From contig CAYWCV010000005.1 in NCBI GenBank assembly GCA_964456845.1, positions 14,852 through 78,851 on the forward strand: a DNA stretch of 64,000 bases, read 5' to 3'. A program made the translations under genes and the position numbers. Positions 31,301 through 49,824 of the stretch are shown here, piece by piece. Numbering within the stretch: the first letter of the stretch is position 1; each line of letters begins with the position of its first letter. This DNA is from an uncultured Chitinophagales bacterium. GTDB taxonomy: Bacteria; Bacteroidota; Rhodothermia; Balneolales; CAYWCV01. The notes under the pieces are model-generated. The model saw only the letters and a list, made by a program, of their open reading frames with translations, made no database searches and had not been told where the DNA came from.

Positions 31301-32207
31301 CATCCACAGAGTCGCGATGATCGATCCAGACGGCTTTGTCGTCCAACGAACTGCGACATCTTCGGGAGTTCACCTAGTGATCGAAAGCCGGAACTGCGAC
31401 ATCGTGCCGGACGTGACGATTAGCGATTGGAAAAACCAAGGGTCCACCAGATTATCAGGATCGATAACCTATCTGGACGACCGCCGAATCACGCGATTTG
31501 CACTACCCGAAGGGTTACCCACGGGTTATGTCGACGTCGATGTACGTCTTCAATTTCAGGGTGAGAACTTATTTCGGCAGACGGTATCTCCTGCCCTTCT
31601 GTTGACAAACAACCAGCCTGTGGAGGTCCCACCGAAGGCCCCCAGCCTGACCAGCCCAGCATCGAGGCAATTCGTTTTCGACAACCAGGTCGAGTTGAAG
31701 TGGAACGAAGTTGACGGTGCATACCAGTACAGGGTGCAGCTTGCGATGGATGCTGATTTCGCGATGGTTGTCGAAGACAGCACAGTGAACGTGGCAAACA
31801 CGCGATTTTCTGTATATGGATACGGCATACAGTGGTATTGGCGTGTATCTGCAAAAAACGACCAGGGATGGGGCCCATGGTCATTGCGGCGCAGCTTCAC
31901 AACGGTGATCGAATCGACCACTATGCACGAAACGGACGTTCCGCATGAGTGGTATCTAGGGCAAAATTTCCCGAATCCATTCAACCCGTCTACGCAGATA
32001 CAATTCGGGATCGGCGCCGTCGAACCTGTTCGATTGGAAATTTACTCATTGACAGGCCAACTTGTGAAATCGGTCGATTTCGGGACGCTAAACGCAGGTT
32101 CTCATTCGATATCGGTCGATTTGGGGCGCCTGGCGAGCGGTCTTTACCTGTACCAAATCAGCACACCGAGCTTCCGGCAGTCAAAAAAGATGACCTTAAT
32201 CAAGTAG
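28398..32207 (+). CDS. 1269-aa subtilisin-like (S8) serine protease with T9SS CTD
   Basis: The catalytic triad contexts are AIIDTGVDYTHPDL, HGTHVAGIAAG and SGTSMAAPHVAGIAAL. It has a long beta-rich extension and an FN3-like module. CTD is FPNPFNPSTQIQF...GLYLYQI...KMTLIK. Confidence 0.9.
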   Translation: MAAQHFFTTSDIRAAYAGKRHKLHGLYLAFSISLVVGTLAHAQHAPFQLTTPNTPETIRINTQPSDSTREWIVVFDDRLPEKTALANRFESDLQRALNRHSGSLKASEAHVKALPLINGAVFSAPTRVLPELLDHSYIAYIDINHEVTLHPVSDAGTISTGYFGRNLTRVADGGIGVNIAIIDTGVDYTHPDLGGCLGATCKVIGGYDTVDDDPDPFDENGHGTHVAGIAAGTGLSNGVAQGAKILAYRALNAAGSGTFATTIEAIERAIADGAHIINMSLGSSSAPPGNPLNLAVREAVKQGVLVVASAGNNGPQWGTISSPGNEELALTVGAIRSDDMVAAFSSRGPSRINFALKPDVSAPGVDILSAVPGGGHLRLSGTSMAAPHVAGIAALYRERMPQSDVLAIKARIIQSARPLNQPLWHTGLGKASSDIAHSRQVAIHPASISVRVSKPETIDGTQIVEGSLRAWNFGDFATNARITWDVPAGVDLQMPQTVNLPSLGEIEIPYRILIDPNVVTYPTDSPPIFMGSIRIVAHADTVVIPILVARPSEIVFEFQSPPSIVVVHDRKGGFEFRGNPGRVFSMLTGAGSYDVWAIRDEDATKWVFEGVEVLGSTTLTVNETDAKNTLRYDLSDPNGVNVGACGYSREFLRHKPSKLALSYQYERSCAEVSELVIQNQISDISSHYLYEVSHVAYGAATAYEYLRYPFRFDGGITGNRLLRSGGTDFKPVRWHYVMPSGIESASFIRIYETIGGNIYTPPSWLKYAIVDPWYRTEYLTANPDRTFAPFHRQYDKIYAMEANQFDPDQDAVLLTTPSAALIQNDSLILGVAELPSARDVTVPYDGEPIVIGAGPDSWSPGSMTLTDQVLQIPTTNSWFLGWNREMRTGIVELEVLDERGQPVLGKSVKNGIPNLGSIKTEDWITIPVSNDYHSLHLTRSDTWLETRNQVTSVSVALNEISIQTAQNCIHRVAMIDPDGFVVQRTATSSGVHLVIESRNCDIVPDVTISDWKNQGSTRLSGSITYLDDRRITRFALPEGLPTGYVDVDVRLQFQGENLFRQTVSPALLLTNNQPVEVPPKAPSLTSPASRQFVFDNQVELKWNEVDGAYQYRVQLAMDADFAMVVEDSTVNVANTRFSVYGYGIQWYWRVSAKNDQGWGPWSLRRSFTTVIESTTMHETDVPHEWYLGQNFPNPFNPSTQIQFGIGAVEPVRLEIYSLTGQLVKSVDFGTLNAGSHSISVDLGRLASGLYLYQISTPSFRQSKKMTLIK

Positions 32208-37120: not shown

Positions 37121-37278
37121 GTCCGAAATATAACTCTAAGCACGGTGCTTCTCGAAATAGTGAGCCTGCCGGGAACGAGTTGCCTCAATTTTGCAATTTT
37201 CATTCATGAAATTAGTTTATTTGGTTAAACTTGGATTTCCGATTTTTTAACGGCCGATCAGTACCCCATCGAGAACTC

Positions 37279-40113
37279 ATGAACAGTAACTACCGTCTTG
37301 GCAGAAACCATTTCGTATTGGTCACCATTGCAGTGTTGGCCTTGGCTGTATGGGTTCCAGCCACGCTCGTCACTTCCGAAACGGCTGAGTCGCCTCTGCG
37401 CGTGAGATCATCCGGATCAGCCAAAGCATCGGTTGAATCGAAGGCTGCCAGGGACGACTATTACTTTTGGATGTTGCGTGACCCGGCAACAAACACGGTT
37501 CCGTCGGGTATCAGGCAGATGGAGTTGGAACACGCACGGCTGACTGCCGTAATGAAAACCTCTGCCGACCCCCAGATCGACTGGGTGGCGCGCGGACCAT
37601 CCAATATTGGAGGAAGAACCAGGGCTCTGGCCGTCGACCTTCGCAATCCCAGCATTATTCTGGCGGGAAGCGTGTCGGGTGGAATGTGGAAATCGATTGA
37701 CGGTGGCAATTCATGGTCGCTCAGGAACACCCCCGATCAGAACTTGAGCATAACGTGGGTGGTGCAAGACCCAAGACCGGGGCATCGAGATACGTGGTAC
37801 TATGCCGGTGGCGAATACATTGGCGGATCATCCCGTGACAGGGGTGGGCGTGCGTTCACGTATGGGAGTGGCATCTACAAATCGACCGACAACGGCGACA
37901 CCTGGCAGGCAATTCCGTCAACTGTGATCAGAAATCCAGTCGTGTTCGACTCCCCGTTCGACTATGTATCCAGAATCGTGATAAGCCCCGTAACCGGCAC
38001 CATCTTCATGGCCAGCAACGTCATTGGCATTTACCGTTCGACAGATGGAGGGAACAATTTCATCACCGGCGAAGACATTGCCGGTGGAATCGTTTTGGGA
38101 AACATCAACGAGCACACCTACAACGATGTGATCGTTCTGCCAAACGGGACGGTTGTCGCCTCGTTGAGTGGCGACCGTGCAACCGATACAGCCCCATTCG
38201 CTGGCATTTACAAATCTACACAGGATGGCGCACCCGGCACCTGGGAGTTGATCACACCGAGTGGATTTCCGCAGAATCATCACCGGTCGGTGATGACCTA
38301 CAGTGAGTCGGAACCCAACTGGGTTTACATACTCACCCATGAAGTGCTTGAAGGGAGCAACTTCCGCATGAACCTGTTCCGGTTCAATGTGGAGACTGGC
38401 GAGAGCGACAACTTAACTGGAACGATTCCGAACTTTGGCGGAACGGTTGGGTCATTCAATCCACAAGGAGGTTACAACATGGTCATAGCCGTCAAGCCGG
38501 ATGACCCGAATATCGTACTGCTTGGCGGAACCAACTTATACAGGACCATCGACCGCTTCGAGACCTATCCCGGTAATGCCGAAGTGAATTGGATTGGCGG
38601 CTACAACATCACAAACAACGCCAGCCGCTATCCTTCACATCATCCCGATCAGCACGTTATTTTCTTCGACCCTGAGAATCCGAATCGTGTTTGGAGTGGT
38701 CACGACGGGGGCGTGAGCCTCACGGAAGACATCACCCTCTCGAAAATCACCTGGCAAAATAAAAACCGCGGGTATGTCACGACTCAGTTTTATACCATCG
38801 CATTGGCCGAGGAGGCCGGAGACCAGCGGGTGATCGGCGGAACCCAAGATAATGGCACCTTGTTTTTTGTCGGCCAAGGAGATGCCAGAGATGTGACCTC
38901 CGGCGACGGCAGTTACACATTTTTGGGCCAAAACTTCGCATATGGTGCCACTCAAAGTGGCAACTCATACCGATTGAGGTACAATACAGACGGCACCATC
39001 GCCCAGGGAAGCCGGACGAGCATCCAGCCATCGAGCGCCTCGGGCCAGTTGTTCATCCATCCGTTTGCCTTGGATCCGATCGATCAGGAGATCATGTACT
39101 ACCCCGAGAGGAATACGATCTGGCGAAACTCGAAGATCTCGACGGCTGTTGGCGATCCACGTGGTTTTGACGGGTCAACCGACGGGTGGACCAAGCTGAC
39201 CCTGAGCATTCCCACCACCTTGACAGTGTCGACTCTTGAGGTCTCCCAAAATCCACCTCATATCCTATATATCGGAGCCAGCCAAAGAAGTTCGTCCGGC
39301 ACTGCATTGTTGCCGGGCGTTTACCGAATGGATAATTCCAGATCGGCAACCGACGTCCTGCCCATACCTCTTCCAAGCGGTGGTGGTGCCAATGCCGTCA
39401 CCCCTGGGTCATATGTGCACGATATTGCCGTCAACCCTGGTAACGCCGACGAGATATTGGTGGTAATATCGAACTACAACGTCAACAGGCTGTTCCACAG
39501 CTTGAACGGGGGGCTTTCGTACCAGGTGGTTGACGGGAACCTGGGAAATATCGGGTCAATTCCGGGTCCGTCGGTTCGAAGTGCGCAGTTACTGCCGATA
39601 GAGGACGGTACGTTTGCCGTTGTCGCGACGAGCACTGGCATCTACTCGACCGACCGCCTCAACGGCGCTCAGACCGTCTGGGCGCGCGAAGGTTTCGATG
39701 AGATCGGAACGGTGGTGGTCGAGCGGCTTGCAGCAAGAATGAGTGATGGCACCGTTGCAGCCGGCACACATGGCAGAGGCATCTTCTCGGGTATATTGCG
39801 CTTGCCGGTCGTGCAGCCGGAGTTGCCGGAGACCTTTGCCCTGTATCCAAACTTTCCGAACCCGTTCAACCCCGAAACGACGATAATGTTCGACTTGCCA
39901 GAGACATCCATTGTCAGCCTGCGGGTATACGACATCCTCGGCAGACCCGTATCGACCATATTGAGCAATCAGGAGCTGCGTCCTAGAACACACAGGGTGA
40001 GGTTCGATGCAGGCAATCTTGCCAGCGGGGCATATTTGTATCGGTTGACCGTAATAAGCGCCGAGAACGGTAACCAAATCACTCGCACGGGAAAAATGAT
40101 GCTTATCCGATGA
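37279..40113 (+). CDS. BNR/Asp-box repeat beta-propeller protein with T9SS CTD
   Basis: Asp-boxes SIDGGNSW, STDNGDTW, STDGGNNF, SLNGGLSY. CTD is FPNPFNPETTIMFDLP...GAYLYRL...KMMLIR. The start is taken at the ATG at 37279; the track starts at a TTG at 37231. Confidence 0.75.
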   Translation: MNSNYRLGRNHFVLVTIAVLALAVWVPATLVTSETAESPLRVRSSGSAKASVESKAARDDYYFWMLRDPATNTVPSGIRQMELEHARLTAVMKTSADPQIDWVARGPSNIGGRTRALAVDLRNPSIILAGSVSGGMWKSIDGGNSWSLRNTPDQNLSITWVVQDPRPGHRDTWYYAGGEYIGGSSRDRGGRAFTYGSGIYKSTDNGDTWQAIPSTVIRNPVVFDSPFDYVSRIVISPVTGTIFMASNVIGIYRSTDGGNNFITGEDIAGGIVLGNINEHTYNDVIVLPNGTVVASLSGDRATDTAPFAGIYKSTQDGAPGTWELITPSGFPQNHHRSVMTYSESEPNWVYILTHEVLEGSNFRMNLFRFNVETGESDNLTGTIPNFGGTVGSFNPQGGYNMVIAVKPDDPNIVLLGGTNLYRTIDRFETYPGNAEVNWIGGYNITNNASRYPSHHPDQHVIFFDPENPNRVWSGHDGGVSLTEDITLSKITWQNKNRGYVTTQFYTIALAEEAGDQRVIGGTQDNGTLFFVGQGDARDVTSGDGSYTFLGQNFAYGATQSGNSYRLRYNTDGTIAQGSRTSIQPSSASGQLFIHPFALDPIDQEIMYYPERNTIWRNSKISTAVGDPRGFDGSTDGWTKLTLSIPTTLTVSTLEVSQNPPHILYIGASQRSSSGTALLPGVYRMDNSRSATDVLPIPLPSGGGANAVTPGSYVHDIAVNPGNADEILVVISNYNVNRLFHSLNGGLSYQVVDGNLGNIGSIPGPSVRSAQLLPIEDGTFAVVATSTGIYSTDRLNGAQTVWAREGFDEIGTVVVERLAARMSDGTVAAGTHGRGIFSGILRLPVVQPELPETFALYPNFPNPFNPETTIMFDLPETSIVSLRVYDILGRPVSTILSNQELRPRTHRVRFDAGNLASGAYLYRLTVISAENGNQITRTGKMMLIR

Positions 40114-40146: not shown

Positions 40147-40749
40147 CTAGCTTCCAGACCTTTGGATGATCGCCAAGAGCTCCTGCTGTAGGGTTCGGCT
40201 TTTGTCCGAATTGTACCACTGCTGCATTTCAATCTGGATGTCGCGTGTTTCGTCAGGGTTCGCCTTGTAGTCGGCCATCATTTGCTGCACAGGTGCCGGA
40301 CGCGGACCCCAAGTACCCACTTCTTCGCCCGTATGTGCCTTATAAACAACAAGTCTTGGTATGGATCTTCCGCCGTTAACAAGGTATTGATCCATAATAT
40401 CGGGGTTATCGTCACGTAAGATCATACCCAACTGTATACGGCCGTCACTTGCTTTCGAAACCAGGTCGAAAACCGGAATCACGTGGGCAGAGTCGCCACA
40501 CCAGCCCTCGGTAATCACCATCCAGTACTGGGGCTCAGCAGTCTTGGCGGCAGCAACCAGCTCTTCGGATAACTTCGTGGTCTTGTGTACGCGGGCCATG
40601 CGGTGCACATTCAGTTTCGAGACTTCCGTGCGTTTCGGGGTCTGTTTTTCACCTGTCGACTTACCCTCGTCGAGCAGGGAGTTGATCAGTCCCTCGTAGG
40701 CCTCATAAGAAAATGCTGTGTCTTTTATTTCGAAATATGGGCTGGTCAT
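40147..40749 (-). CDS. thioredoxin-fold family protein (WCGDS active-site variant)
   Basis: MVITEGWCGDSAHVIPVF, followed by a thioredoxin-like beta-alpha-beta pattern. Confidence 0.55.
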   Translation of the reverse strand: MTSPYFEIKDTAFSYEAYEGLINSLLDEGKSTGEKQTPKRTEVSKLNVHRMARVHKTTKLSEELVAAAKTAEPQYWMVITEGWCGDSAHVIPVFDLVSKASDGRIQLGMILRDDNPDIMDQYLVNGGRSIPRLVVYKAHTGEEVGTWGPRPAPVQQMMADYKANPDETRDIQIEMQQWYNSDKSRTLQQELLAIIQRSGS

Positions 40750-40793
40750 TATAGAATCGGTACCATTAGTTGTTTATAACAAATATACGCATA

Positions 40794-41747
40794 TCATTTC
40801 ATGAGTATGTGAACGAACACCATGGCCGCAAGGATGAAAGCCACAAATGACAAGGATGTCAGGTATTTCACTCTCATAACCGGCCCATACTCACTGGCAT
40901 CGCCCGTAAGACGATTGATTTGAGTGCCGACAAGTCTTCCGGTGACGAATCCTGAGGCGATAAACGCCAACCCAATGGGCCATTGGATCAATAACAGAGG
41001 GATGCCAGACATGATCAGGCCGATATGGTATGCGTTTCTGTAGAACTTTTTCACCCCTGTTACACCAAACTCGATGGCGAACGTACGATCGCCCCTTTTC
41101 GAATCTGATCGCATCTGATAGAGCTGCGACACGGGATAAAGCGAAAGAAAAACCAGTGCCGTGCCAATGCCTGCAATCACGATACCGGGGCTGAACGCAT
41201 CCCCACCTGCCGCAAAATACCCCATCCAAAACGAGTTTGTGCCTGTGCTGATTCCGATTGCGATGATACTCTTGAGTGGATGCCCTTTCCAACGGGCTCT
41301 TCTTGTGCTGTACAGCCAAAAGAAAACCATACTCACCAGATACAGATAGGTGAATTCCATTCCAGCATAATGAGCAAGCAGCAAACCGCCAAACTGCATC
41401 CATAGGGCAACTTTCCGCATCCAAGGCTGCATGCCAGGGGGATTCTTCAAGCCGCCAATCGGCCCCTCGTCCTTATCGTGCCATGAATTATAGACGGTGG
41501 CAGTTCCAAAGAGGAGTACGGACACGTTCAAAAACTGGAGCCAAAACGTTCCGGCATGAAACCTTTCAGAAAACAGGGCTCCGAACAAGTAGCCACCAGA
41601 AAGTATGAACACTTGATAATGCAGTCGGAAGTGCACAACGAAGGACCGGACATCGTCGGGCAGGACGCTTCCAAGCCTTCGGAACAGGCCTAGTAATGAC
41701 TCCAGAAATGCATCGATTTTTTCCACATCCGAAAGATACGCAAGCAT
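40794..41747 (-). CDS. polytopic membrane protein, possibly UbiA-superfamily prenyltransferase
   Basis: About 8 TM helices. It has two Asp-rich loops at the UbiA-like spacing (YNSWHDKDEG and YQMRSDSKRGDRT). The assignment is weak. Confidence 0.4.
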   Translation of the reverse strand: MLAYLSDVEKIDAFLESLLGLFRRLGSVLPDDVRSFVVHFRLHYQVFILSGGYLFGALFSERFHAGTFWLQFLNVSVLLFGTATVYNSWHDKDEGPIGGLKNPPGMQPWMRKVALWMQFGGLLLAHYAGMEFTYLYLVSMVFFWLYSTRRARWKGHPLKSIIAIGISTGTNSFWMGYFAAGGDAFSPGIVIAGIGTALVFLSLYPVSQLYQMRSDSKRGDRTFAIEFGVTGVKKFYRNAYHIGLIMSGIPLLLIQWPIGLAFIASGFVTGRLVGTQINRLTGDASEYGPVMRVKYLTSLSFVAFILAAMVFVHILMK

Positions 41748-41807: not shown

Positions 41808-44800
41808 TCACTTGAGTAACGTCACGGTTTGTGTTGTGTGATGGCCGCCGAATCTAGCTCGAATGATGTAGATTCCGCTCGGTAATCGAACCGCATTCCA
41901 TATAAAATCGTGCACCCCCGACTTCATTACGCCGGTATGTATCGTACGTACACGCCTTCCGAGGATGTCGTGCACAACGATAGATAGATCACCAGCATCA
42001 GGAAGATGTACACGCAAAGTAGTGCTTGGGTTAAAGGGGTTAGGCCTGGCCGGCTCCAATATGAACTCGTTGGGAATGTCCATTACATCAGTGTCATACA
42101 AGGCCTTTAGCCGAAGAAGCCGGAACGATACCCAGTTGTCAAGCCCATTGCCGTTGTTGACTTCGTCTCCTATTCCGTACAAGCCAACTGTCCACTCCAG
42201 CTCAGTGGTCAGCTGCAGGCTGTCGGATGAGCTATGTGAGCGGTGTAATTCGCTGGCCAGAAAACTGCGTGATAGTTCGCCAGAATCCAACTTAAGCATG
42301 TTTACTAAACTCCGATCCGGACTGCGCGTGAGAAAGTAGGCACTACTTGCCACGGAGTCGGGAAACTGATCATACGGTCGTTGAGCCGGCTTGATTTCCC
42401 AATTAAACTCAACGTCGGTGTCATCATTTTTGGTCCATGAGATCAGCTGATCCTTGTTGGGCGATATCAACACCGGTACTGGTGGTGTGTATATGTCGAT
42501 GTCAGATGTTGAGGTGACAACAACTTTGAGGTATGGCGAACTGGGAAGATATAATGGATGTCCAGTAACTGCCCATTCTTGTTCAAATGGACTCCGCCCA
42601 TCCCCTGGCCTTTCACCAGACATGCATATCATTCTGGGTTGCCTGCCGCGCTGTCTATACATTGGGCTTCCGTCCTCGCACACGTGGTTGGTTTGCATCA
42701 CATTCCCAAGCGAGATTTGAGCGTGACCATAAACTGATGCGTTTGACGAATCCGGATGGACGACGTAAGGTACGGTCGGTATATGTGTTGGTTTGTCAAG
42801 TAATCTGAAGTCGATGATGTCGATGCCGAACTCTTTTAAAACTGCGACCAAAGCAATTTCTCGAGGCAACTTAGTTTGCGAGATTCGGCCATAAGGATCG
42901 GTAAACATCATATTCCCGCCAGGGAGGTGCAACAAGACGTCTTGTCCATTGATCCAAAGTGCCGATCCCGTTGTTGCAATGGTATCGCCGATTGCCGTAT
43001 TCCAAACATCAGGTGCTGCCATGGGTCTCTGAGCAGGATCAGGCAGCGTTTCGAAAACGAAATCCGTAAATGAGCTGCTGTAAGTGATTGACCCATGCAA
43101 CGTGTTGAAGGCGAAAACCCTGAGTATCCATTTTTGCCCAAGAGGAAGCCCATTGACCGTCAACGTACGCTGAGCGGGTCCATTAATGACAAACGTTGCG
43201 TCACCAATCTTATCGCCATGCGAATATTCGTGACCAGAGTGATAGAACACATCGTGTTCGGGCCGACTTGGCTCGGTGCCAAACGGTGTGATCGTGAATA
43301 GCAGAAACGACGAATCGGGTTCGGAGACTGTCATGGCTACTGAATGCATGCTTTTGCTCTGCAAACGCACTTCCAAATGTGGCATTTCGGGTTCTGCCAG
43401 TCTTGGAATTGCTACATCGATATAGGGATGCTCCGGTTTTGAGTAACGCGCCACAGAATCAGGCCCTGCGACAGATAGGGCCCATATGCGGTAGTGGGAA
43501 CCGGGCCGCAAGCCACCGATCACAGGCAGATGTTGATCTGGAGTTCTAGGGACGTGTCGAAAATCAGTACCATTCAGCTGGTCCGATGCGGTTGAGTCAG
43601 CCAGTTGTGGTTGCGCCGCACCCTGTGGCGCATAAACAATGATGACATCGAAACCGCCCGATGAAACTTTCAGTTCTAAGGAATCAGGTTCTTTGAAATG
43701 GTAGTGGGTAATTACCGGCATCGCCGGTGGCATGTAAGGGGTCGCAAACTCAATCGGACTGCTGCACGAATATGCTTCACCAACGTATCCACAGTGAGAT
43801 ACTCGATAGTGGGTGGCTGGTTTCAGTCCTTCAAGATGAAACTCACTGCGTTGATCTGACACCACATAGAACTTTTCGTCGACTTGACCTTGAGATTCCA
43901 ATTTCAGCGACTGCGTGGTGGGCCATTTACCAACTGCCGATATCCACCTGCCGACGAGTGTCACTCCTGCATCTACATTAGAAGATAAAATCAGGTCTCC
44001 CATGAGGGGTAGTGACCCGACTTCGTAGCTTCCGTATAACCGTACATCATCCAGCCTTGACGTGCCCGATCTGGATATGGGATTTCCATTCATGGCGACA
44101 TCATCGACAGGTGTGATCAAGAGCTTCATCTGAGGTTGATCCAGACACGGTGAAGGCAATTCGACTAATTGGACAATTGAATTCGCCCATGTGGACGATG
44201 CATCCACAACCTGGGGACTTGTAACATTCTGACCTCCGATATCGCATACGACGCGAAACCTTGCCGGACCCGTAGCAGACGATATGACCCTGAATGCAAT
44301 GTGTCCAAACGACAGACCGTGGGTAGTCATGGACAAAGTCCATGATTTTTCGAGACTTGGCTCGTGCCATTGATCCACATAGGATGCCCTACCTGAATGG
44401 CCCGTTGCATAACCCCTGTCGCGTGCTCCATTCACTGATACATCAACATGTTGATGCTCCCAAACGGCCCACGATGGACTGCTCGATTCTGAGTCGAAAC
44501 TCCATTCTGCCAACAAGCGGCCTATGCTTGGGTCGGGCCAAGATGGTTGCCACACTGCAATTGGCAGCTTTTGTATCGATTGATGACCTTCAGGCCCGTC
44601 AATGGTAAATGCGACGACATACTTGATACCTACAAGGTCACGGTTTACCGTACAGGGTGACGCCACGCATCCCGTGTCAACGAACTCGGTGTCTGTATCC
44701 TCACCATCGAGAAAACTCAATAAATCAATATCTGATGGAATTTCATCAACAACGAGTACTTTGACAAATCCTTGTACAGGCGAAGCCCAAGTGAATGTGA

Positions 44801-45959
44801 CTTCCTCGAAGGTTACAAGCTTAACACGAAAGCTCTCGAGAGGAGGAGGGCTTTTGGCCCGGGTCTGATAGCTCACCACCTCTTGTCCGTCCTCAAGGTA
44901 GTTTTCCATGCCTCCTTCGCCGTTAAATTCAAGAACGGTGAGCAATACACTTTCGAGTGGTTGAAGTCCGAATATGATGGCCTGATTCCCGATACCACTC
45001 CAAAGCACGCGGCACCCATTTTTTGTCAGTCCAGCAACATGGATGTTTGGATGGGCATCATATGTAGCGGATGTATCGGTCTCGCAACTTGTGACACCAT
45101 CAGGCAATGCAGCAAGGATGCTGTAATCACCATTGCCTCGATCCCATGCGACATACATCGATGTGTCCGATCGAGCCGTCAGATTGATATTTCGTGCCTG
45201 AACCGTGGGCTTGTCTGCATAGGGTGGTGGCTCTGGTGGGGTAATGTCGTCGTCTTCATCGTGATCATCGGTGCTGTAAAGGCGAATCTCCTCAAGCCCC
45301 CATTCGTCCCTTGAACCCGTTCCGGATCCGTCCTTCATGACCCAACGTATGAACAGAGTGCCACCTTCGGTTGCTTCACCGATTGGCAGCGTAGCCGAAG
45401 CAGTCTGTTTCTTCCAAACCACGCCTACCTCCGCAGCTGCAGGCGTCATCGTTCCACCCCCGTTTGAAGGATAGAAGTTATCCCCATCGGTAGACCATTC
45501 CAGCTCAATCAACGTGCTTCTCCCCTGATCGTTATATATCCACAAATCGTACGAAACACCAATTTTCGAGGCAGTTACATCGTTGCCAATCAGAATCTTG
45601 AGCGTTGCAGAGCCAGGTGACAAATCTGTACCGGTTGGCTGAAATCCGAGAAGCCTGATATCTGCCGCCGGGGTGAATGCATAAACCCCACCCGTAGTCA
45701 CACGTCCGGCACTGATACCCCTACCGAAGTCGCCTCCCATTCTAGTTTCGCCGAAATCCATCGCTCCATCCGAAAGCCCGTTTACTATCCAAGACCTTGA
45801 GTCAATCCTTCCCTGAACAACCTCCGGAGCAAAGCCAAGGCCCGCCCAATTGTTGAAACGCACCTTGAGTGTGTCGCCCGAGAACACTTCCTGAGCGTGT
45901 GTAACAATACTGATGTTCACGAATAGAGCTAAAAAAAGCAGGCATGCTGTCGCTTTCAT
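41808..45959 (-). CDS. 1383-aa secreted FN3-repeat-rich protein of unknown function with T9SS CTD
   Basis: Signal peptide MKATACLLFLALFVNISIVTHAQ. FN3-like strand patterns are present (GLKPATHYRVS, GLRPGSHYRIWALS, SMYVAWD). CTD is RPNPFNPSTTLRVHLP...GIYIIRA...TVTLLK. The ATG overlaps the upstream stop (ATGA). Confidence 0.8.
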   Translation of the reverse strand: MKATACLLFLALFVNISIVTHAQEVFSGDTLKVRFNNWAGLGFAPEVVQGRIDSRSWIVNGLSDGAMDFGETRMGGDFGRGISAGRVTTGGVYAFTPAADIRLLGFQPTGTDLSPGSATLKILIGNDVTASKIGVSYDLWIYNDQGRSTLIELEWSTDGDNFYPSNGGGTMTPAAAEVGVVWKKQTASATLPIGEATEGGTLFIRWVMKDGSGTGSRDEWGLEEIRLYSTDDHDEDDDITPPEPPPYADKPTVQARNINLTARSDTSMYVAWDRGNGDYSILAALPDGVTSCETDTSATYDAHPNIHVAGLTKNGCRVLWSGIGNQAIIFGLQPLESVLLTVLEFNGEGGMENYLEDGQEVVSYQTRAKSPPPLESFRVKLVTFEEVTFTWASPVQGFVKVLVVDEIPSDIDLLSFLDGEDTDTEFVDTGCVASPCTVNRDLVGIKYVVAFTIDGPEGHQSIQKLPIAVWQPSWPDPSIGRLLAEWSFDSESSSPSWAVWEHQHVDVSVNGARDRGYATGHSGRASYVDQWHEPSLEKSWTLSMTTHGLSFGHIAFRVISSATGPARFRVVCDIGGQNVTSPQVVDASSTWANSIVQLVELPSPCLDQPQMKLLITPVDDVAMNGNPISRSGTSRLDDVRLYGSYEVGSLPLMGDLILSSNVDAGVTLVGRWISAVGKWPTTQSLKLESQGQVDEKFYVVSDQRSEFHLEGLKPATHYRVSHCGYVGEAYSCSSPIEFATPYMPPAMPVITHYHFKEPDSLELKVSSGGFDVIIVYAPQGAAQPQLADSTASDQLNGTDFRHVPRTPDQHLPVIGGLRPGSHYRIWALSVAGPDSVARYSKPEHPYIDVAIPRLAEPEMPHLEVRLQSKSMHSVAMTVSEPDSSFLLFTITPFGTEPSRPEHDVFYHSGHEYSHGDKIGDATFVINGPAQRTLTVNGLPLGQKWILRVFAFNTLHGSITYSSSFTDFVFETLPDPAQRPMAAPDVWNTAIGDTIATTGSALWINGQDVLLHLPGGNMMFTDPYGRISQTKLPREIALVAVLKEFGIDIIDFRLLDKPTHIPTVPYVVHPDSSNASVYGHAQISLGNVMQTNHVCEDGSPMYRQRGRQPRMICMSGERPGDGRSPFEQEWAVTGHPLYLPSSPYLKVVVTSTSDIDIYTPPVPVLISPNKDQLISWTKNDDTDVEFNWEIKPAQRPYDQFPDSVASSAYFLTRSPDRSLVNMLKLDSGELSRSFLASELHRSHSSSDSLQLTTELEWTVGLYGIGDEVNNGNGLDNWVSFRLLRLKALYDTDVMDIPNEFILEPARPNPFNPSTTLRVHLPDAGDLSIVVHDILGRRVRTIHTGVMKSGVHDFIWNAVRLPSGIYIIRARFGGHHTTQTVTLLK

Positions 45960-48022
45960 AATCTTACCAGAAGGCTAGAATTGATTTGAGTTCTCTTGTT
46001 GTTTTGGATGAGGTCGTCACCCGATCCTATTTGGTATTGATGAGGCCAATGGGTCCTTGCGATTTTAAACCTCACATCAACGTGTTGGCTGGGTTTGTAA
46101 GTGACCAGCATGAAGTGGCGGCTGCCCTCGCCTTGGTACGATGGCAAGGCCGATGCCAATCCTACATCGGGTTCCCAAGCGTATAACCTGGATGCATTGT
46201 TGTCTGAATAAAAAATGGTAACCCGTGCCTGCAAGCGAGTTTTGGATGAAATCCACCAGCTCAGGTCTTGGTGGATCAAGTAACCGTGATGAGCGGCACT
46301 TAAGTCCTCTGTCGCCCGCACCCATTCGGCACGAGTTACCCATGTTGCGCGAGGCAACAAGCTTGTGATAGCGTCTATCTTTGCATTGGCACGAGATGCC
46401 GTAAACTGTTTTCGGTATACCCTGCCCGAAGGGTCTGTTGTATCTTTCTCCTCTTCCCGAACCCTTTGCCGCACCGATGCCTGCAACTCCATGATGCCAA
46501 AGCTTCGTACGAGTTTGCCCCCCCACTCGCTTCCTGCCGTCGGCATAAAGTTGTTGCCTCTGGGTTGAAGGCTCGCAAACAAATCGTTATAAAAAATGAG
46601 CCTTGTTTGCCTGTTTGGGCTGTAATTCAGGCTCAAGAGCCATCCCTTTTCGTTGGATGGCCTGCCAGACCAATTACTCAACGGCGCACCGTACGGCGAC
46701 TGAAACCTCTCACCGTAGTACCTGACCGATGCAGACAGCTCGAGCACATCCGTCAAGGATGACTCAACGGCCAAAATGGCGGCATTGCCGGCGGCATAAT
46801 CTGTGGCCACTTCGGCTTGGAATGAAGCTCCTCTGAAGGTTAGCGCGAAGTCTGAGCTGAGAATCCCAAAATACCGGCCTTGCAAACCCATGTCTCCATA
46901 TGGAGTAGGAGTTGGTTTAATAGGGGTAGACGTCGTGGCCGACCATGCGGCAACGCCCAGCTGATACCGTTTTTTATGTATTCCCCCTCTAGCGCCGATC
47001 AACTTGACTGAAAAATTATCCCTTCGGCCAACCTCATCGTTCGTGCGGAATAAAGGTTCAGACGCACCCCATTTCACACCTGTGCTGTCGGCATTGGTGC
47101 CCGTGTAGGATCGGTTCGAGGCCCATATCACAGTCCGAATCTGATTTCCCAGGCTTACCGCAACACCTGAATGTCCGATAACGTAGGATGAACCTGCATA
47201 GGGGGACAATTCACTCCTTGGTGTGCGGGTCGTTGTCAAATCAAATCCCTTTTTGGGAGACCTGCCGGCGCTCATCGACAAACCCATCCCATATGACACC
47301 TTGTACTTGCCAAGGAGCACTTGGTTGGCAAGCGGCAAATTCGAAAGACCGATGTGGGACACCTGGAGTATGGTTCGACTATTCAACCCGACGGCACCGG
47401 GCGCACTCCTTAAGTGGGTTCCAGCAGTAAGCCTTCTGGATCGCAGGATGAACCGTTGGTACCTCTCCCAGGGCGGACCTGGATATACACGGTCCCGGTT
47501 TGGCAAATCGTCCCGGAAACCATTGGCCTTTTCGACGGTACCCCTCACTCTCGACAGTGATTCGAACTTAAGACCAGCGGTCCAGTAGTCGGGATCCAGA
47601 ACGGTGTCTCGTATGACGTCCACGGCAGAACCAAGCGTTATATAGGGCTGAATCCTTTGCCATACGCTCGTTGGGATGCCCGGGATTGATCGCAGCTGAT
47701 CATAACTGGCAAACCCTCCAAGCCTTTCCCGTTGGCGAAGAATTGACCGAGCATACGTTGGACGCATGGCTGGTATTTGCATGAACTCCTCAAATAGCGC
47801 CGTATTCACTTTCACGGGGTTGCGAGCCAGCTCGTCGAGCACGATTAGAACATCCTCAATTTCATCGCCGGTAGACTCCTCATCGATCAAAAAAGCATCC
47901 ATTTCGGAAACTTGGTCTGTTCGGTACAACCAATTGGGATCGCCGGCCATACCATGCTGCTGGCGTACAGTCGAACAGGAGGCGAGCAGAAAAAGGGCGA
48001 AACATGAATGAGAGCGCATCAT
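45956..48022 (-). CDS. lipoprotein with N-terminal tandem helix-hairpin-helix (ComEA-like) region and a large predicted beta-barrel C-terminal domain
   Basis: Trimmed to the ATG at 48022 (MMRSHSCFALFLLASCS, lipobox LASC), which overlaps the upstream stop (ATGA). The HhH region is FMQIPAMRPTYARSILRQRERLGGFASYDQLRSIPGIPTSVWQRI. About 500 aa of amphipathic beta-strand pattern follow. Confidence 0.7.
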   Translation of the reverse strand: MMRSHSCFALFLLASCSTVRQQHGMAGDPNWLYRTDQVSEMDAFLIDEESTGDEIEDVLIVLDELARNPVKVNTALFEEFMQIPAMRPTYARSILRQRERLGGFASYDQLRSIPGIPTSVWQRIQPYITLGSAVDVIRDTVLDPDYWTAGLKFESLSRVRGTVEKANGFRDDLPNRDRVYPGPPWERYQRFILRSRRLTAGTHLRSAPGAVGLNSRTILQVSHIGLSNLPLANQVLLGKYKVSYGMGLSMSAGRSPKKGFDLTTTRTPRSELSPYAGSSYVIGHSGVAVSLGNQIRTVIWASNRSYTGTNADSTGVKWGASEPLFRTNDEVGRRDNFSVKLIGARGGIHKKRYQLGVAAWSATTSTPIKPTPTPYGDMGLQGRYFGILSSDFALTFRGASFQAEVATDYAAGNAAILAVESSLTDVLELSASVRYYGERFQSPYGAPLSNWSGRPSNEKGWLLSLNYSPNRQTRLIFYNDLFASLQPRGNNFMPTAGSEWGGKLVRSFGIMELQASVRQRVREEEKDTTDPSGRVYRKQFTASRANAKIDAITSLLPRATWVTRAEWVRATEDLSAAHHGYLIHQDLSWWISSKTRLQARVTIFYSDNNASRLYAWEPDVGLASALPSYQGEGSRHFMLVTYKPSQHVDVRFKIARTHWPHQYQIGSGDDLIQNNKRTQINSSLLVRL

Positions 48023-48876
48023 TTCACTAACCTCCCGATCCAGTAATTCTGACGCCACCCCAAGGGTTCGTTGGTGATCTTCGCAAGGCTGATGCCAGAA
48101 AGAAATCCACTTTTGTAAAATCGCATCCCCATTTCGATACGCGATGGCATCGTGCCAAGACCAAGGCTGAGTACAAGGATGTCGTGGACTTTCCATGCAA
48201 GGCCTCCCCTGTAGTCGATCGGAAACTGATCGCTGACACTCAGTCCCCCTCCCATCGACACATTCGGGTGAGGGGTGTGAAATAAGTCGATATCTACGAG
48301 ACGCTCTATCGGATCGCCACCCATCATCCAGTTTGATCCAAGAACATTTTGGACACGTGCTGCGAGCTGTAGATCATCGCGGATTGCTTTATGGATATGG
48401 CTCTGAACGACAATTGCTCTGTCGTTTTGGTAGGGGTTTTGAAGTTTAAGCATCCAGAACTCAGCCCCAAGGCCCAATTTGACGCCATTGGTGGCATATT
48501 GGGCCGACGCTTGGGTAACCCAATGCCGCATTTGGGTCCAGCCCAACAAGCTGCCACCTAATGCAACCGATGACTTCGATCGTCTCAAACCTACTTGAAT
48601 CCATGGCTCGTCAAGTTCTTTCAGGCCAAACGAGCGTTGCACACCACTGGCGAACCAGAATCGGCCGTCTGGGTGTATTACAACGTCTGGTGCCCTATCT
48701 GAAGTCGGCAATAATGCCACTCCCGATTGGGACCAGTTTCCAGAGCCCTGTGCATGAATCGGATTGGTCGTGCATACGCAAGCCCACACAATGATCGTTA
48801 TAACGGCAAAACAAACCGGACACAGGTGGCACCGTTTTTTGGGATGGTCGATATGTGTACCTTTAGTCGTATACAT
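48019..48876 (-). CDS. small predicted outer-membrane beta-barrel protein; start uncertain
   Basis: The track ORF (to 49323) overlaps the divergent gene. A plausible start is the ATG at 48876 or 48888, preceding the hydrophobic signal CFAVITIIVWACV...IHAQ. The mature part is rich in alternating aromatic/hydrophobic strands. No recognisable catalytic motif. Confidence 0.5.
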   Translation of the reverse strand: MYTTKGTHIDHPKKRCHLCPVCFAVITIIVWACVCTTNPIHAQGSGNWSQSGVALLPTSDRAPDVVIHPDGRFWFASGVQRSFGLKELDEPWIQVGLRRSKSSVALGGSLLGWTQMRHWVTQASAQYATNGVKLGLGAEFWMLKLQNPYQNDRAIVVQSHIHKAIRDDLQLAARVQNVLGSNWMMGGDPIERLVDIDLFHTPHPNVSMGGGLSVSDQFPIDYRGGLAWKVHDILVLSLGLGTMPSRIEMGMRFYKSGFLSGISLAKITNEPLGWRQNYWIGRLVK

Positions 48877-48915
48877 GGCTATATCCATAAGAGCCACGAG
48901 AAAGCAATTCCTTAC

Positions 48916-49824
48916 ATGCGAAATCGCATTTTTTACAACTTTTTTTTCATGTTGGCCCTGTTGGGTCTGCACAGCTCGACCTTTGCCCAAGAAATCAAGG
49001 CTGTCGTGACCCTCGACAAGTCGCAATTGACCGGTGCCACCGGCATCAATTATGTCGACGACATCAAATCGGTAATCGAACGGTACATTAACGAGCACAA
49101 ATGGACCACCGACACTTACCGCGAGGAAGAGCGGATTGTCATGAACATCCAGGTAAGCCTTCTGTCGATCGACGGCAACTCCAATTTTGAGACTGCTCTG
49201 ATCGTCACCGCTGAGCGTCCCATTTATAATTCGACGTCTCAGAGTATGCTGTTCCAGTTTTCGGAACCGTCGTGGAGGTTCAACTACACACCGAACAGGA
49301 CGCTCTTGAACGACCCGCTGCAATATGACGACTTCGCAACCATGCTCGATTACTATGCTTTGCTTGCATTGGGCTATGATGGCGACTCTTTTGCCGAATT
49401 GGGCGGCTCACCCTTTTTCAGAAGGGCCCAGAACATCGTGGATGTGGCATCAGCCGCAGGTGGCACTGGTTGGTCGAGCAGCACCTCGACTTTAAGAAAC
49501 CGCTACTTTTTAATCTCGCGACTCAACGACCCCAACTACGACCGTTTCCGTCGGGCCTACTACCAGTACCACCGTCGCGGTTTGGATGTGTTTATCGACA
49601 GTCAGGCGACAGCCAGGACTAATGTCATGGAGGCGTTGCGCTCGATCTATGAGAACAAACGCCAGACTGCAGACACCTTCGTCTTCGACATGTTCTTCAA
49701 CGCGAAATACCGTGAACTTACCGGCATTTTTGGAGACGCGGACCAGCAACAGCGTATCCAAGCCTACCAGCTACTGTCGCAGGCCGACCCATCGCACCTT
49801 ACGGAGTATGATAAACTGAGATAG
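48916..49824 (+). CDS. DUF4835-like periplasmic protein (a family I believe has been linked to T9SS as PorD; unverified)
   Basis: Trimmed to the ATG at 48916 (MRNRIFYNFFFMLALLGLHSSTFAQ). The conserved-looking blocks VVTLDKSQL...YINEHKWT and LLALGYDGDSF...RNRYFLI..L match my memory of DUF4835 proteins. Confidence 0.55.
   Translation: MRNRIFYNFFFMLALLGLHSSTFAQEIKAVVTLDKSQLTGATGINYVDDIKSVIERYINEHKWTTDTYREEERIVMNIQVSLLSIDGNSNFETALIVTAERPIYNSTSQSMLFQFSEPSWRFNYTPNRTLLNDPLQYDDFATMLDYYALLALGYDGDSFAELGGSPFFRRAQNIVDVASAAGGTGWSSSTSTLRNRYFLISRLNDPNYDRFRRAYYQYHRRGLDVFIDSQATARTNVMEALRSIYENKRQTADTFVFDMFFNAKYRELTGIFGDADQQQRIQAYQLLSQADPSHLTEYDKLR

What the first reader, a model, noticed from the sequence alone, without database searches (positions are those of the whole stretch)
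41808..48888. Translationally coupled operon: small barrel, HhH lipoprotein barrel and a 1383-aa FN3-rich T9SS cargo
Three consecutive minus-strand genes share ATGA stop/start overlaps at 48019..48022 and 45956..45959, implying stoichiometric co-production. The first two look like outer-membrane beta-barrels. One of them carries a ComEA-like DNA-binding HhH pair. The third is a giant CTD-bearing surface protein.

The operon is divergently transcribed from a DUF4835 gene, with only about 30-40 bp between the start codons. I recognise no enzyme motif in any of the three.

Inference: this is a surface machine that links a giant adhesin-like protein to an outer-membrane DNA-binding platform, for example for extracellular-DNA-dependent adhesion or DNA capture. 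I do not know of a characterised equivalent.
Basis: inference. Interest (0 to 1): 0.7.

Follow-up and report, generated by a model that had tools for sequence, protein, structure and literature searches.

The report
PorV-like barrel plus HhH barrel cassette
The three overlapping genes are real, but the conserved unit is a widespread, unstudied pair of outer-membrane barrel genes (a relative of the secretion protein PorV plus a large barrel with a ComEA-like domain), and only this lineage has added a giant secreted surface protein behind the pair.

Summary
**Observation: confirmed.** Three minus-strand genes (g1 48019..48888, g2 45956..48022, g3 41808..45959) share exact ATGA overlaps. They lie 27 bp from a divergent DUF4835 gene, which NCBIfam now names the T9SS component PorD.

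**What the three genes are**
- g1 is a divergent member of the PorV/PorQ barrel superfamily.
- g2 is a lipoprotein with a ComEA-type HhH pair and a barrel of about 24 strands. The barrel has no Pfam, NCBIfam or PDB relative.
- g3 is a type-A-CTD T9SS cargo with two lectin-like modules and FN3 domains, and no enzyme domain.

**Conservation**
- The g2 family is large: 1,626 clusters at E<=1e-30.
- A g1-like gene abuts g2 in 82 of 93 loci. Ten of the eleven loci without one have under 600 nt of upstream sequence.
- porD sits divergently next to the pair in the window and all 12 loci of its clade and a Balneolaceae-like group. It is absent from all 80 Bacteroidota-type loci.
- g3 homologues exist only in the window's clade, always overlapping g2.

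**Reading**
- Best reading: a T9SS-linked outer-membrane module that this clade has coupled to a dedicated cargo.
- The "surface DNA-binding platform" reading is weak. The HhH domain is probably periplasmic, its Gly-x-Gly hairpins are degenerate, and no competence genes are nearby.
- All mechanism is inferred.

The parts
48019..48888 (-). g1: 289-aa outer-membrane protein, a divergent member of the PorV/PorQ barrel superfamily. The start could instead be the ATG at 48876. Has a signal peptide with a possible lipobox (VWAC) and an AQ cleavage motif.
   Evidence: - No direct Pfam or NCBIfam hit.
- Clade alignment A2 against 46 g1-like proteins: hhalign probability 97.1%, E 5.6e-11.
- Those proteins hit NF033709 PorV/PorQ at E 5e-5 to 7e-24, and their profile hits PorV chain 6h3i_F at E 2.3e-9.
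- The AF2 model is all-beta but low confidence (pLDDT 51.6). Its Foldseek matches are OmpG, FadL and PorV.
47975..48022 (-). g2 signal peptide with lipobox LLASC (Cys16)
   Evidence: - Cys16 is invariant in the 13 clade members.
- Most distant family members instead have a plain signal peptide ending in AQ.
47636..47821 (-). g2 ComEA-type helix-hairpin-helix pair (aa 68-129), preceded by an acidic linker; predicted to face the periplasm
   Evidence: - PF12836 at E 2.4e-10.
- ComEA, EEPD1 and Tex are the best PDB sequence matches.
- The hairpin glycines are degenerate.
45959..47575 (-). g2 large beta-barrel domain (aa ~150-688, about 24 strands) with no named family
   Evidence: - AF2 model: pLDDT 61.5, pTM 0.52, with long antiparallel strands.
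- All top Foldseek PDB hits are outer-membrane barrels, although TM-scores are only 0.2-0.3.
- The C-terminal residue is Phe or Trp in 96 of 142 family representatives.
- The family profile finds no barrel relative in PDB.
45956..48022 (-). g2 whole gene (688 aa), overlapping g1 and g3 by 4 nt each
   Evidence: The family has 1,626 representative clusters at E<=1e-30.
41808..45959 (-). g3: 1383-aa T9SS type-A cargo, specific to this clade
   Evidence: - Full-length homologues exist only in the clade, and each one sits directly after g2.
- fn3 and Por_Secre_tail are each found in 10 of 13 homologues; no enzyme family appears.
45279..45857 (-). g3 N-terminal beta-sandwich-like module (aa 35-227), an unannotated domain family
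   Evidence: - 37-42% identical to N-terminal modules of secreted proteins that carry EEP nuclease, LTD, 5'-nucleotidase or ExeM/NucH-like parts.
- No Pfam, NCBIfam or PDB hit.
44028..44534 (-). g3 second module (aa 476-644), discoidin / F5-8 type C-like
   Evidence: 27% identical to repeated modules of the Bacillaceae thermonuclease-family protein P0203. One of those repeats overlaps its F5_F8_type_C hit.
41811..42044 (-). g3 T9SS type A C-terminal sorting domain (aa 1306-1383)
   Evidence: TIGR04183 at 27.7 bits against a cut-off of 23. PF18962 at 17.8 bits is below its cut-off.
48916..49824 (+). porD (DUF4835), a T9SS Extended Translocon accessory protein, divergent from g1
   Evidence: - NF052317 at 257.7 bits against a cut-off of 170.
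- The divergent adjacency to the g1-g2 pair holds in the window and 12 loci, L001-L006, L087, L089-L092 and L094.
40147..41747 (-). UbiA-family prenyltransferase (40794..41747) and Thioredoxin_9 protein (40147..40749). They always follow g3 in the clade; operon membership is unproven.
   Evidence: for the families. for the synteny. No terminator signal above chance lies between g3 and the UbiA gene.

Best explanation
**What is shown**
- The conserved unit is a translationally coupled two-gene outer-membrane cassette.
   - One gene encodes a ~275-aa barrel of the PorV/PorQ (FadL-like) superfamily (g1).
   - The other encodes a ~690-aa protein with an N-terminal ComEA-type HhH pair followed by a barrel of about 24 strands (g2).
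- In one deep branch, the window's clade plus a Balneolaceae-like group, the cassette is always divergently paired with porD. PorD is a periplasmic accessory of the T9SS translocon.
- The window's clade alone has inserted a cargo gene, g3, overlapping the end of g2. g3 has a type-A CTD, two lectin-like modules and FN3 domains.

**What is inferred**
- g1 and g2 form an outer-membrane complex that works with the type IX secretion system.
   - This would parallel the small PorV carrier docking on the large SprA barrel, or PorQ, PorV and PorP-like barrels holding PorZ, PorU and SprB-type proteins at the surface.
- The HhH domain faces the periplasm and serves as a contact module, towards PorD/PorW, peptidoglycan-side partners or possibly nucleic acid.
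- In this clade g3 is exported by the T9SS and is handled or anchored by the g1-g2 module. The result is a large binding protein displayed on the cell surface.
For: **The pair is the conserved unit**
- A g1-like gene lies directly upstream of g2 in 82 of 93 loci. Ten of the eleven misses have under 600 nt of upstream sequence.
- The pair overlaps or lies within 19 nt in 71 of 79 measured cases, and 24 of those show the 4-nt overlap.
- The family is large and uniform in length: 1,626 clusters at E<=1e-30.

**g1 is PorV/PorQ-like**
- NF033709 is hit by 10 of 10 tested g1-like proteins.
- The g1-like profile hits PorV chain 6h3i_F at E 2.3e-9, the only significant PDB hit.
- The window clade's g1 alignment matches that family at 97% hhalign probability.

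**g2 is a barrel**
- AF2 and Foldseek results.
- An aromatic C-terminal residue in most family representatives.

**Link to T9SS**
- porD is divergently adjacent in the window and all 12 loci of the two groups that hold upstream DNA. This holds although the g2 proteins of the Balneolaceae-like group share only 29-49% identity and every other neighbour differs.
- PorD binds PorW/SprE in the translocon (PMC8754138, PMC10994853).
- g3 carries a type-A CTD. Every g3 homologue found, down to 31% identity, overlaps a g2 gene by 4 nt.
- The window encodes several other CTD cargoes.
Against: - No experiment or paper connects this pair to the T9SS.
- porD is not adjacent in any of the 80 Bacteroidota-type loci. 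There purE or unrelated genes flank the pair, and no flanking family recurs in more than 5 of 95 neighbours.
- The window's g1 does not itself reach any PorV/PorQ model. Its relatives score below NCBIfam's cut-off (23-85 bits against 90). The clade has also lost the N-terminal GARSxGMGNA motif of the family.
- Within the clade the whole ~20-kb block is syntenic, so g2-g3 adjacency could partly reflect shared descent.
- Whether the pair also occurs in T9SS-negative Bacteroidota was not tested.
- Both AF2 models are low to moderate confidence, and no complex was modelled.
Confidence: 0.45

Rival explanations
1. DNA capture or uptake machine, the first reader's idea made topologically consistent.
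- g3 binds extracellular DNA at the surface.
- The g2 barrel is the conduit across the outer membrane.
- The periplasmic ComEA-like HhH domain of g2 binds and ratchets incoming DNA.
- g1 assists as a lateral-gate partner.
For: - The HhH_3 match is above its cut-off, and ComEA chains are among the best PDB matches.
- The HhH region of the window clade is basic, with net charge +2 to +6.
- The Balneolaceae-like group keeps a canonical GIG in the second hairpin.
- Both g3 modules recur in secreted EEP nucleases, LTD proteins, 5'-nucleotidases and a thermonuclease.
- The outer-membrane step of DNA uptake in Bacteroidota is poorly understood (PMC8459023).
Against: - The G-h-G hairpins are absent in the window (IPAMRP, PGIP) and present in only 24 of 148 family members. 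The mean net charge of the region is -0.85.
- The same fold serves protein contacts outside the cytoplasm: PsbU and GspK appear among the profile's PDB hits.
- No ComEC, DprA or ComF appears among the flanking genes censused or in the annotated loci.
- The transposon screen in Riemerella anatipestifer found a different outer-membrane pair and a different HhH protein with the HhH at aa 236-301 (PMC8459023). That screen was not saturating.
- g3 is absent from almost all lineages that carry the pair.
Confidence: 0.15
2. General outer-membrane transport unrelated to T9SS.
- g1 is a FadL-like channel for hydrophobic or polymeric substrates, working with the large g2 barrel in uptake or export.
- The porD and g3 neighbours reflect genome history rather than function.
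For: - PorV/PorQ belong to the FadL-like barrels. Weak hits of g1-like proteins to Toluene_X, DUF5777 and DUF3187 barrels fit this.
- In Bacteroidota-type loci the pair sits among housekeeping genes (purE, folD) and sometimes next to SusC-like receptors.
- Foldseek matches of g2 include polymer exporters such as AlgE and PelB.
Against: - The porD adjacency survives complete turnover of all other neighbours at 29-49% g2 identity. That is hard to explain by history alone.
- The closest solved relative of the g1-like family is PorV itself, not FadL.
- The g2-g3 4-nt overlap is conserved down to 31% identity.
Confidence: 0.2
3. The g1-g2 cassette is a functional unit, but g3 (with the UbiA and thioredoxin genes) is merely a co-transcribed passenger inserted downstream in one clade. 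g3 would be secreted and attached by the general T9SS, with no specific tie to g1 or g2.
For: - g3 has an ordinary type-A CTD, which the standard PorU/PorV/PorZ/PorQ attachment pathway handles (PMC9143113 for the type A versus type B distinction).
- The pair functions without g3 in almost all lineages.
- Whole-block synteny in the clade.
Against: - Every g3 homologue recovered lies after g2 with the same 4-nt overlap, and none was found elsewhere.
- Overlap maintained at 31-35% protein identity suggests selection for coupled expression.
Confidence: 0.2

Closest known systems
PorV with the SprA/Sov translocon (T9SS carrier barrel plus giant barrel; PDB 6h3i, 8gl6)
   Same: - A small PorV-superfamily barrel is encoded with, and presumably works with, a much larger outer-membrane barrel.
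- PorV is the only significant solved relative of the g1-like family.
- There is genomic linkage to a translocon accessory, PorD.
   Different: - g2 has no sequence similarity to SprA: the profile search of PDB finds only HhH proteins.
- g2 has about 24 strands, against 36 in SprA.
- g1-like proteins are ~275 aa, against ~400 for PorV, and score below the PorV/PorQ family cut-off.
- No interaction has been shown.
PorQ-PorZ and PorV-PorU attachment pairs, and PorP/SprF-like anchors of type-B CTD proteins (PMC9143113)
   Same: A T9SS-related small barrel is encoded next to a large surface protein that it may hold at the surface. g3 sits in the same operon as a PorV/PorQ-like gene.
   Different: - g3 has a type-A, not a type-B, CTD.
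- A second large barrel (g2) lies between the genes.
- Most lineages have the barrel pair with no adjacent cargo.
ComEA, the periplasmic DNA receptor of natural transformation (PDB 8dss, 2duy)
   Same: The same HhH_3 domain family, with ComEA chains among the best PDB matches to the HhH region. Both are extracytoplasmic.
   Different: - ComEA is a small protein with a C-terminal HhH. g2 fuses the domain to the N-terminus of a 540-aa barrel.
- TIGR01259 scores 28.7 bits against a cut-off of 152.
- The hairpin glycines are degenerate.
- There is no competence gene context.
Riemerella anatipestifer transformation genes RA0C_RS04920/RS04915 (surface protein plus CarboxypepD_reg barrel) and RS02645 (HhH protein) (PMC8459023)
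   Same: A Bacteroidota set of surface protein, outer-membrane barrel and HhH protein, proposed to move DNA across the outer membrane.
   Different: - The families differ. RS04915 has a CarboxypepD_reg domain and RS04920 has DUF5689/DUF5017.
- RS02645 has its HhH at aa 236-301 and has homologues in Firmicutes.
- None of those domains is found in g1-g3.
PsbU and GspK (HhH-type folds used for protein contacts outside the cytoplasm)
   Same: Both appear among the PDB hits of the g2 family profile. They show that this fold need not bind DNA in an extracytoplasmic setting.
   Different: The matches are weak (E 0.045-0.5) and the overall proteins are unrelated.

Membership tests
PorV/PorQ family (NCBIfam NF033709) - g1 | Scores at or above the curated family cut-off (90 bits) | tested here: not met
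   - The window g1 has no hit at E<=0.1.
- Ten g1-like relatives score 22.9-85 bits with near full-length coverage.
PorV/PorQ family (NCBIfam NF033709) - g1 | Detectable homology to PorV at profile level | tested here: met
   - g1-like profile A6 against PDB: PorV chain 6h3i_F at E 2.3e-9, in three segments along the protein.
- Window clade alignment A2 against A6: hhalign probability 97.1%, E 5.6e-11 over 179 columns.
PorV/PorQ family (NCBIfam NF033709) - g1 | 14-strand FadL-like barrel with a conserved N-terminal segment | tested here: inconclusive
   - The AF2 model has pLDDT 51.6 and about 11-12 modelled strands. Its Foldseek hits are OmpG, FadL and PorV at TM 0.3-0.45.
- The N-terminal GARSxGMGNA motif of the wider family is missing in the window clade.
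PorV/PorQ family (NCBIfam NF033709) - g1 | Binds CTD-bearing proteins or T9SS partners (SprA, PorU, PorZ) | not testable with these tools
   This needs pull-downs or complex modelling.
ComEA (TIGR01259 / TIGR00426) - g2 | HhH_3 domain present | tested here: met
   PF12836 at E 2.4e-10, 40.8 bits against a cut-off of 27.
ComEA (TIGR01259 / TIGR00426) - g2 | ComEA-length protein that scores above the family cut-offs | tested here: not met
   - TIGR01259 scores 28.7 bits against 152.35, and TIGR00426 scores 22.1 against 53.1.
- The protein is 688 aa, with a 540-aa barrel.
ComEA (TIGR01259 / TIGR00426) - g2 | Canonical Gly-hydrophobic-Gly hairpins and a basic DNA-binding face | tested here: inconclusive
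   - The window has IPAMRP and PGIP in place of G-h-G, but the region is net basic (+2 to +6).
- Across the family, 24 of 148 members have G-h-G and the mean charge is -0.85.
ComEA (TIGR01259 / TIGR00426) - g2 | DNA binding, and a role in transformation | not testable with these tools
   No competence genes were seen among the neighbours. This is context only, not a test.
T9SS type A CTD cargo (TIGR04183) - g3 | C-terminal sorting domain above the curated cut-off | tested here: met
   - 27.7 bits against 23, aa 1306-1378.
- Por_Secre_tail is found in 10 of 13 homologues.
T9SS type A CTD cargo (TIGR04183) - g3 | N-terminal Sec signal peptide | tested here: met
   Read from the sequence: MKATACLLFLALFVNISIVTHAQ/E.
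T9SS type A CTD cargo (TIGR04183) - g3 | The host encodes a T9SS | tested here: inconclusive
   porD and at least four other CTD proteins are in the window. The core genes sprA and porKLMN are not in the window and could not be looked up.
T9SS PorD (NF052317) - divergent neighbour | Scores above the equivalog cut-off over its full length | tested here: met
   257.7 bits against 170, covering aa 9-301 of 302.
TonB-dependent receptors and other named large barrels - g2 | Plug, TonB_dep_Rec or another named barrel domain | tested here: not met
   - No such Pfam or NCBIfam hit.
- The family profile finds no barrel in PDB.
- Foldseek similarity is generic, at TM 0.2-0.3.

The most novel reading that the evidence does not exclude
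The PorV-like / HhH-barrel pair is an unrecognised outer-membrane component widespread in Bacteroidota-type and related lineages. It could be a PorD-linked station of the type IX secretion system. Alternatively, in the bolder version, it could be a pilus-independent DNA conduit. In that version the barrel carries its own periplasmic ComEA-like ratchet, and this clade has added a surface protein built from nuclease-associated binding modules.
Probability: 0.2. Interest if true: 0.85.

Novelty: new variant of a known kind. Interest (0 to 1): 0.55.

Why it matters
- The T9SS parts list is still growing. PorD itself was accepted only in 2022-2024, and its deletion phenotype is mild.
- This pair is conserved and translationally coupled: a PorV-superfamily barrel plus a large barrel of an unnamed family with 1,626 clusters.
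   - One deep branch keeps the pair back-to-back with porD. That makes it a concrete candidate for a missing outer-membrane partner.
   - It can be tested in species with genetics, if they carry the pair; candidates are Flavobacterium johnsoniae, Cytophaga hutchinsonii and Porphyromonas.
- The g2 barrel and the g3 N-terminal module both lack any Pfam or NCBIfam model, so both are annotation gaps.
- If the HhH domain does bind DNA, the pair would bear on how DNA crosses the outer membrane in Bacteroidota, which is poorly understood.

Tried and rejected
- **Direct family searches for g1** found nothing. The link to PorV came only through syntenic relatives.
- **The genome-contig scan** returned only 2 loci, because its peptide patterns were clade-specific.
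A Bacteroidota-type subset, A4, was used instead, so the 80 loci are biased towards that group.
- **PDB sequence searches** found only FlgD-like Ig matches to the CTD for g3, and nothing for its N-terminal module.
- **Promoter and terminator scans** were at chance level, so operon ends remain undefined.
- **Rfam and tRNA scans** of the window were empty.
- **Literature searches** linking HhH or ComEA with PorV, PorQ or T9SS gave nothing relevant. One hit was the author name "Comeau".
- **BT3167**, an HhH protein of the T9SS-negative Bacteroides thetaiotaomicron, could not be checked for family membership.
- **Considered and rejected:**
   - g2 as a TonB-dependent receptor, because it has no plug or receptor domains.
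   - g2 as the Riemerella transformation HhH protein, because the architecture differs.
   - g3 as an enzyme, because no catalytic family appears in 13 homologues.

Full report
**1. The observation**

The ORF list shows three consecutive minus-strand reading frames.
- g1, 48019..48888, 289 aa
- g2, 45956..48022, 688 aa
- g3, 41808..45959, 1383 aa

Reading the DNA confirms ATGA at 48022..48019 and at 45959..45956. A GGGAGG lies 8 nt before the g2 start.

The divergent plus-strand gene begins at 48916. That is 27 bp from the g1 ATG, or 39 bp if g1 starts at the next ATG. It is DUF4835 and passes the NCBIfam equivalog model for the T9SS protein PorD, at 257.7 bits against a cut-off of 170.

Four-base overlaps are common. 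ORF coordinates suggest at least three other gene pairs in this window share one (those start codons were not checked). So the overlap alone is ordinary. Its conservation in distant relatives is what carries weight.

**2. The three proteins**

*g2*
- It has a lipobox, LLASC, with Cys16 invariant in 13 clade members.
- An acidic linker follows, then a ComEA-type HhH pair (PF12836, E 2.4e-10, aa 68-129).
- A further ~540 residues have no family assignment.
- AlphaFold2 on the 13-sequence alignment (pLDDT 61.5, pTM 0.52) gives a helical N-terminal domain and about 24 long antiparallel strands.
- The 50 listed Foldseek PDB matches are almost all bacterial outer-membrane barrels (FpvA, BtuB, AlgE, LptD, ushers). 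TM-scores are only 0.2-0.3, so this supports the fold class and no particular family.
- The family's C-terminal residue is Phe or Trp in 96 of 142 representatives, as expected for barrel proteins.

*g1*
- It has no direct family hit.
- Its low-confidence model (pLDDT 51.6) is all-beta and matches OmpG, FadL and PorV weakly.

*g3*
- It has a signal peptide and a type-A T9SS sorting domain above the NCBIfam cut-off.
- FN3 signals are weak in the window protein but present in 10 of 13 homologues. No enzyme family appears in any of the 13.

**3. The g2 family and its partner**

An exhaustive profile search found 11,985 proteins at E<=0.001 and 1,626 representative clusters at E<=1e-30. Nearly all are 650-740 aa and match over their full length.
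- They come from Balneolaceae, Cytophagaceae and Labilibaculum.
- Most have a plain signal peptide rather than a lipobox.

I collected 93 loci:
- two GTDB MAGs labelled "uncultured Chitinophagales"
- contigs encoding chosen homologues
- 80 metagenome loci found with a Bacteroidota-type sub-alignment

In 82 of the 93 loci a ~265-320-aa gene on the same strand abuts g2.
- Ten of the eleven exceptions have under 600 nt of upstream DNA. The eleventh is L011.
- The two genes overlap or lie within 19 nt in 71 of 79 measured cases, and 24 of those show the 4-nt overlap. The start-codon choice in that measurement is heuristic.

These upstream proteins are PorV/PorQ relatives.
- All ten tested hit the NCBIfam PorV/PorQ family model over its full length (E 5e-5 to 7e-24), though below its 90-bit cut-off.
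- A profile of 46 of them finds Flavobacterium johnsoniae PorV (6h3i_F) as the only significant solved relative, at E 2.3e-9.
- The window clade's g1 alignment matches that profile at 97% hhalign probability.

So g1 is a divergent PorV/PorQ-superfamily barrel, and the g1-g2 pair is the conserved unit.

**4. What else is conserved**

*porD*
- It is divergently adjacent to g1 in the window and in all 12 loci of two groups that hold upstream DNA.
   - One group is the window's own clade.
   - The other is a Balneolaceae-like group whose g2 proteins share only 29-49% identity with each other and about 25% with the window.
- Every other neighbour differs among the Balneolaceae-like loci.
- A PorD profile finds none in the 80 Bacteroidota-type loci.
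   - There purE precedes the pair in 24 loci.
   - A census of 95 other flanking genes finds no family in more than five, and no ComEC, DprA or ComF.

*g3*
- Full-length homologues, down to 31% identity, exist only in the window's clade.
- Every one looked up lies directly after g2 with a 4-nt overlap, followed by a UbiA-family gene and a Thioredoxin_9 gene.
- The whole ~20-kb block is syntenic in that clade, which weakens synteny as an argument. The preserved overlap at 31-35% identity still suggests coupled expression.

**5. The HhH domain and the DNA idea**

The domain lies between the lipid anchor and the barrel. By the usual topology of outer-membrane barrels it should therefore face the periplasm; this is an inference.

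Evidence against conserved DNA binding:
- The window has IPAMRP and PGIP where ComEA has Gly-hydrophobic-Gly.
- Only 24 of 148 family members keep such a hairpin, mostly in the Balneolaceae-like group.
- The region's mean net charge across the family is -0.85, although it is +2 to +6 in the window clade.
- The family profile's PDB hits include DNA binders (ComEA, Tex, EEPD1). They also include PsbU and GspK, which use the fold for protein contacts.

DNA binding is therefore possible here but is not a family-wide property.

The Riemerella anatipestifer transformation screen implicated a different HhH protein and a different outer-membrane pair (PMC8459023).

In favour of a nucleic-acid theme:
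- The N-terminal module of g3 (aa 35-227) is 37-42% identical to N-terminal modules of secreted proteins carrying EEP nuclease, lamin-tail, 5'-nucleotidase or ExeM/NucH-like parts.
- Its second module (aa 476-644) matches discoidin-like repeats of a Bacillaceae thermonuclease-family protein.

**6. Interpretation**

*Shown*
- The gene pair and its PorV kinship.
- The barrel fold class.
- The porD linkage in one deep branch.
- The clade-specific addition of a CTD cargo.

*Inferred*
- g1 and g2 form an outer-membrane complex tied to type IX secretion. This would be analogous to PorV docking on SprA, or to small barrels anchoring PorZ, PorU and SprB-type proteins (PMC10994853, PMC9143113).
- In this clade the module handles or anchors g3.

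I give this 0.45. The rivals are:
- a DNA-uptake machine (0.15)
- transport unrelated to T9SS (0.2)
- a real pair with g3 as a passenger (0.2)

These readings overlap in part, so the values are not meant to add up to one.

**7. Comparison and novelty**

- g1 is a new, shorter subfamily within a known superfamily.
- The g2 barrel has no model in Pfam or NCBIfam and no sequence relative in PDB.
- I found no paper on the pair in the searchable library.
- I rate it a new variant of a known kind, a T9SS-associated outer-membrane module, with moderate interest.
   - It is a large, unstudied family with a testable link to PorD.
   - All functional claims rest on context and weak structural models.

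Noticed in passing
L002:5653-6727: The PorD homologue in this MAG is split into two overlapping ORFs. This is either a frameshift or pseudogene, or an assembly error.
   Followed up: no
window 45279..45857 (g3 aa 35-227): - This ~190-aa module has no Pfam, NCBIfam or PDB match.
- It recurs at the N-terminus of secreted proteins that carry EEP nuclease, lamin-tail, 5'-nucleotidase or ExeM/NucH-like domains.
- It looks like an unannotated domain family.
   Followed up: partly
alignment A7 of g3 homologues (L001, L003, L094 and others): - The 1645-1656-aa versions of g3 carry one extra discoidin-like module after the first module.
- Eight cysteines are invariant across the family.
   Followed up: no
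window 40147..41747: A UbiA-family prenyltransferase and a Thioredoxin_9 protein follow g3 in every clade member. They are absent from the g1-g2 loci of other lineages. Whether they belong to the operon is unknown.
   Followed up: partly
L007-L068 (24 loci, e.g. L007:6369-6875): In Bacteroidota-type loci, purE lies directly upstream of the g1-like gene on the same strand.
   Followed up: partly
L011:7902-10034: This is the only locus with ample upstream DNA where no g1-like gene precedes g2. An opposite-strand gene abuts it instead.
   Followed up: no
window 48840..48915: - g1 of the clade has a conserved stretch, KGTHIDxP, before its signal peptide. It lies next to the 27-bp spacer to porD.
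- The two divergent promoters must therefore overlap coding sequence, or the true g1 start is further downstream.
- The clade's g1 also lacks the GARSxGMGNA motif of the wider PorV-like family.
   Followed up: partly
window 28398..32207 (+), 37231..40113 (+), 4228..7137 (-), 8264..10435 (-): Four further T9SS type-A CTD cargo genes lie in the window: an S8 peptidase, a 960-aa protein whose sequence looked BNR/sialidase-repeat-like by eye (no such Pfam hit), and two others matched through their CTDs.
   Followed up: partly
window 48030..48035; L005 near 9760: Shine-Dalgarno-like GGAGG motifs precede g2 in the window and in the Balneolaceae locus. From general knowledge this is unusual for Bacteroidia. 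The "Chitinophagales" label of the nearest MAGs may therefore be imprecise.
   Followed up: no
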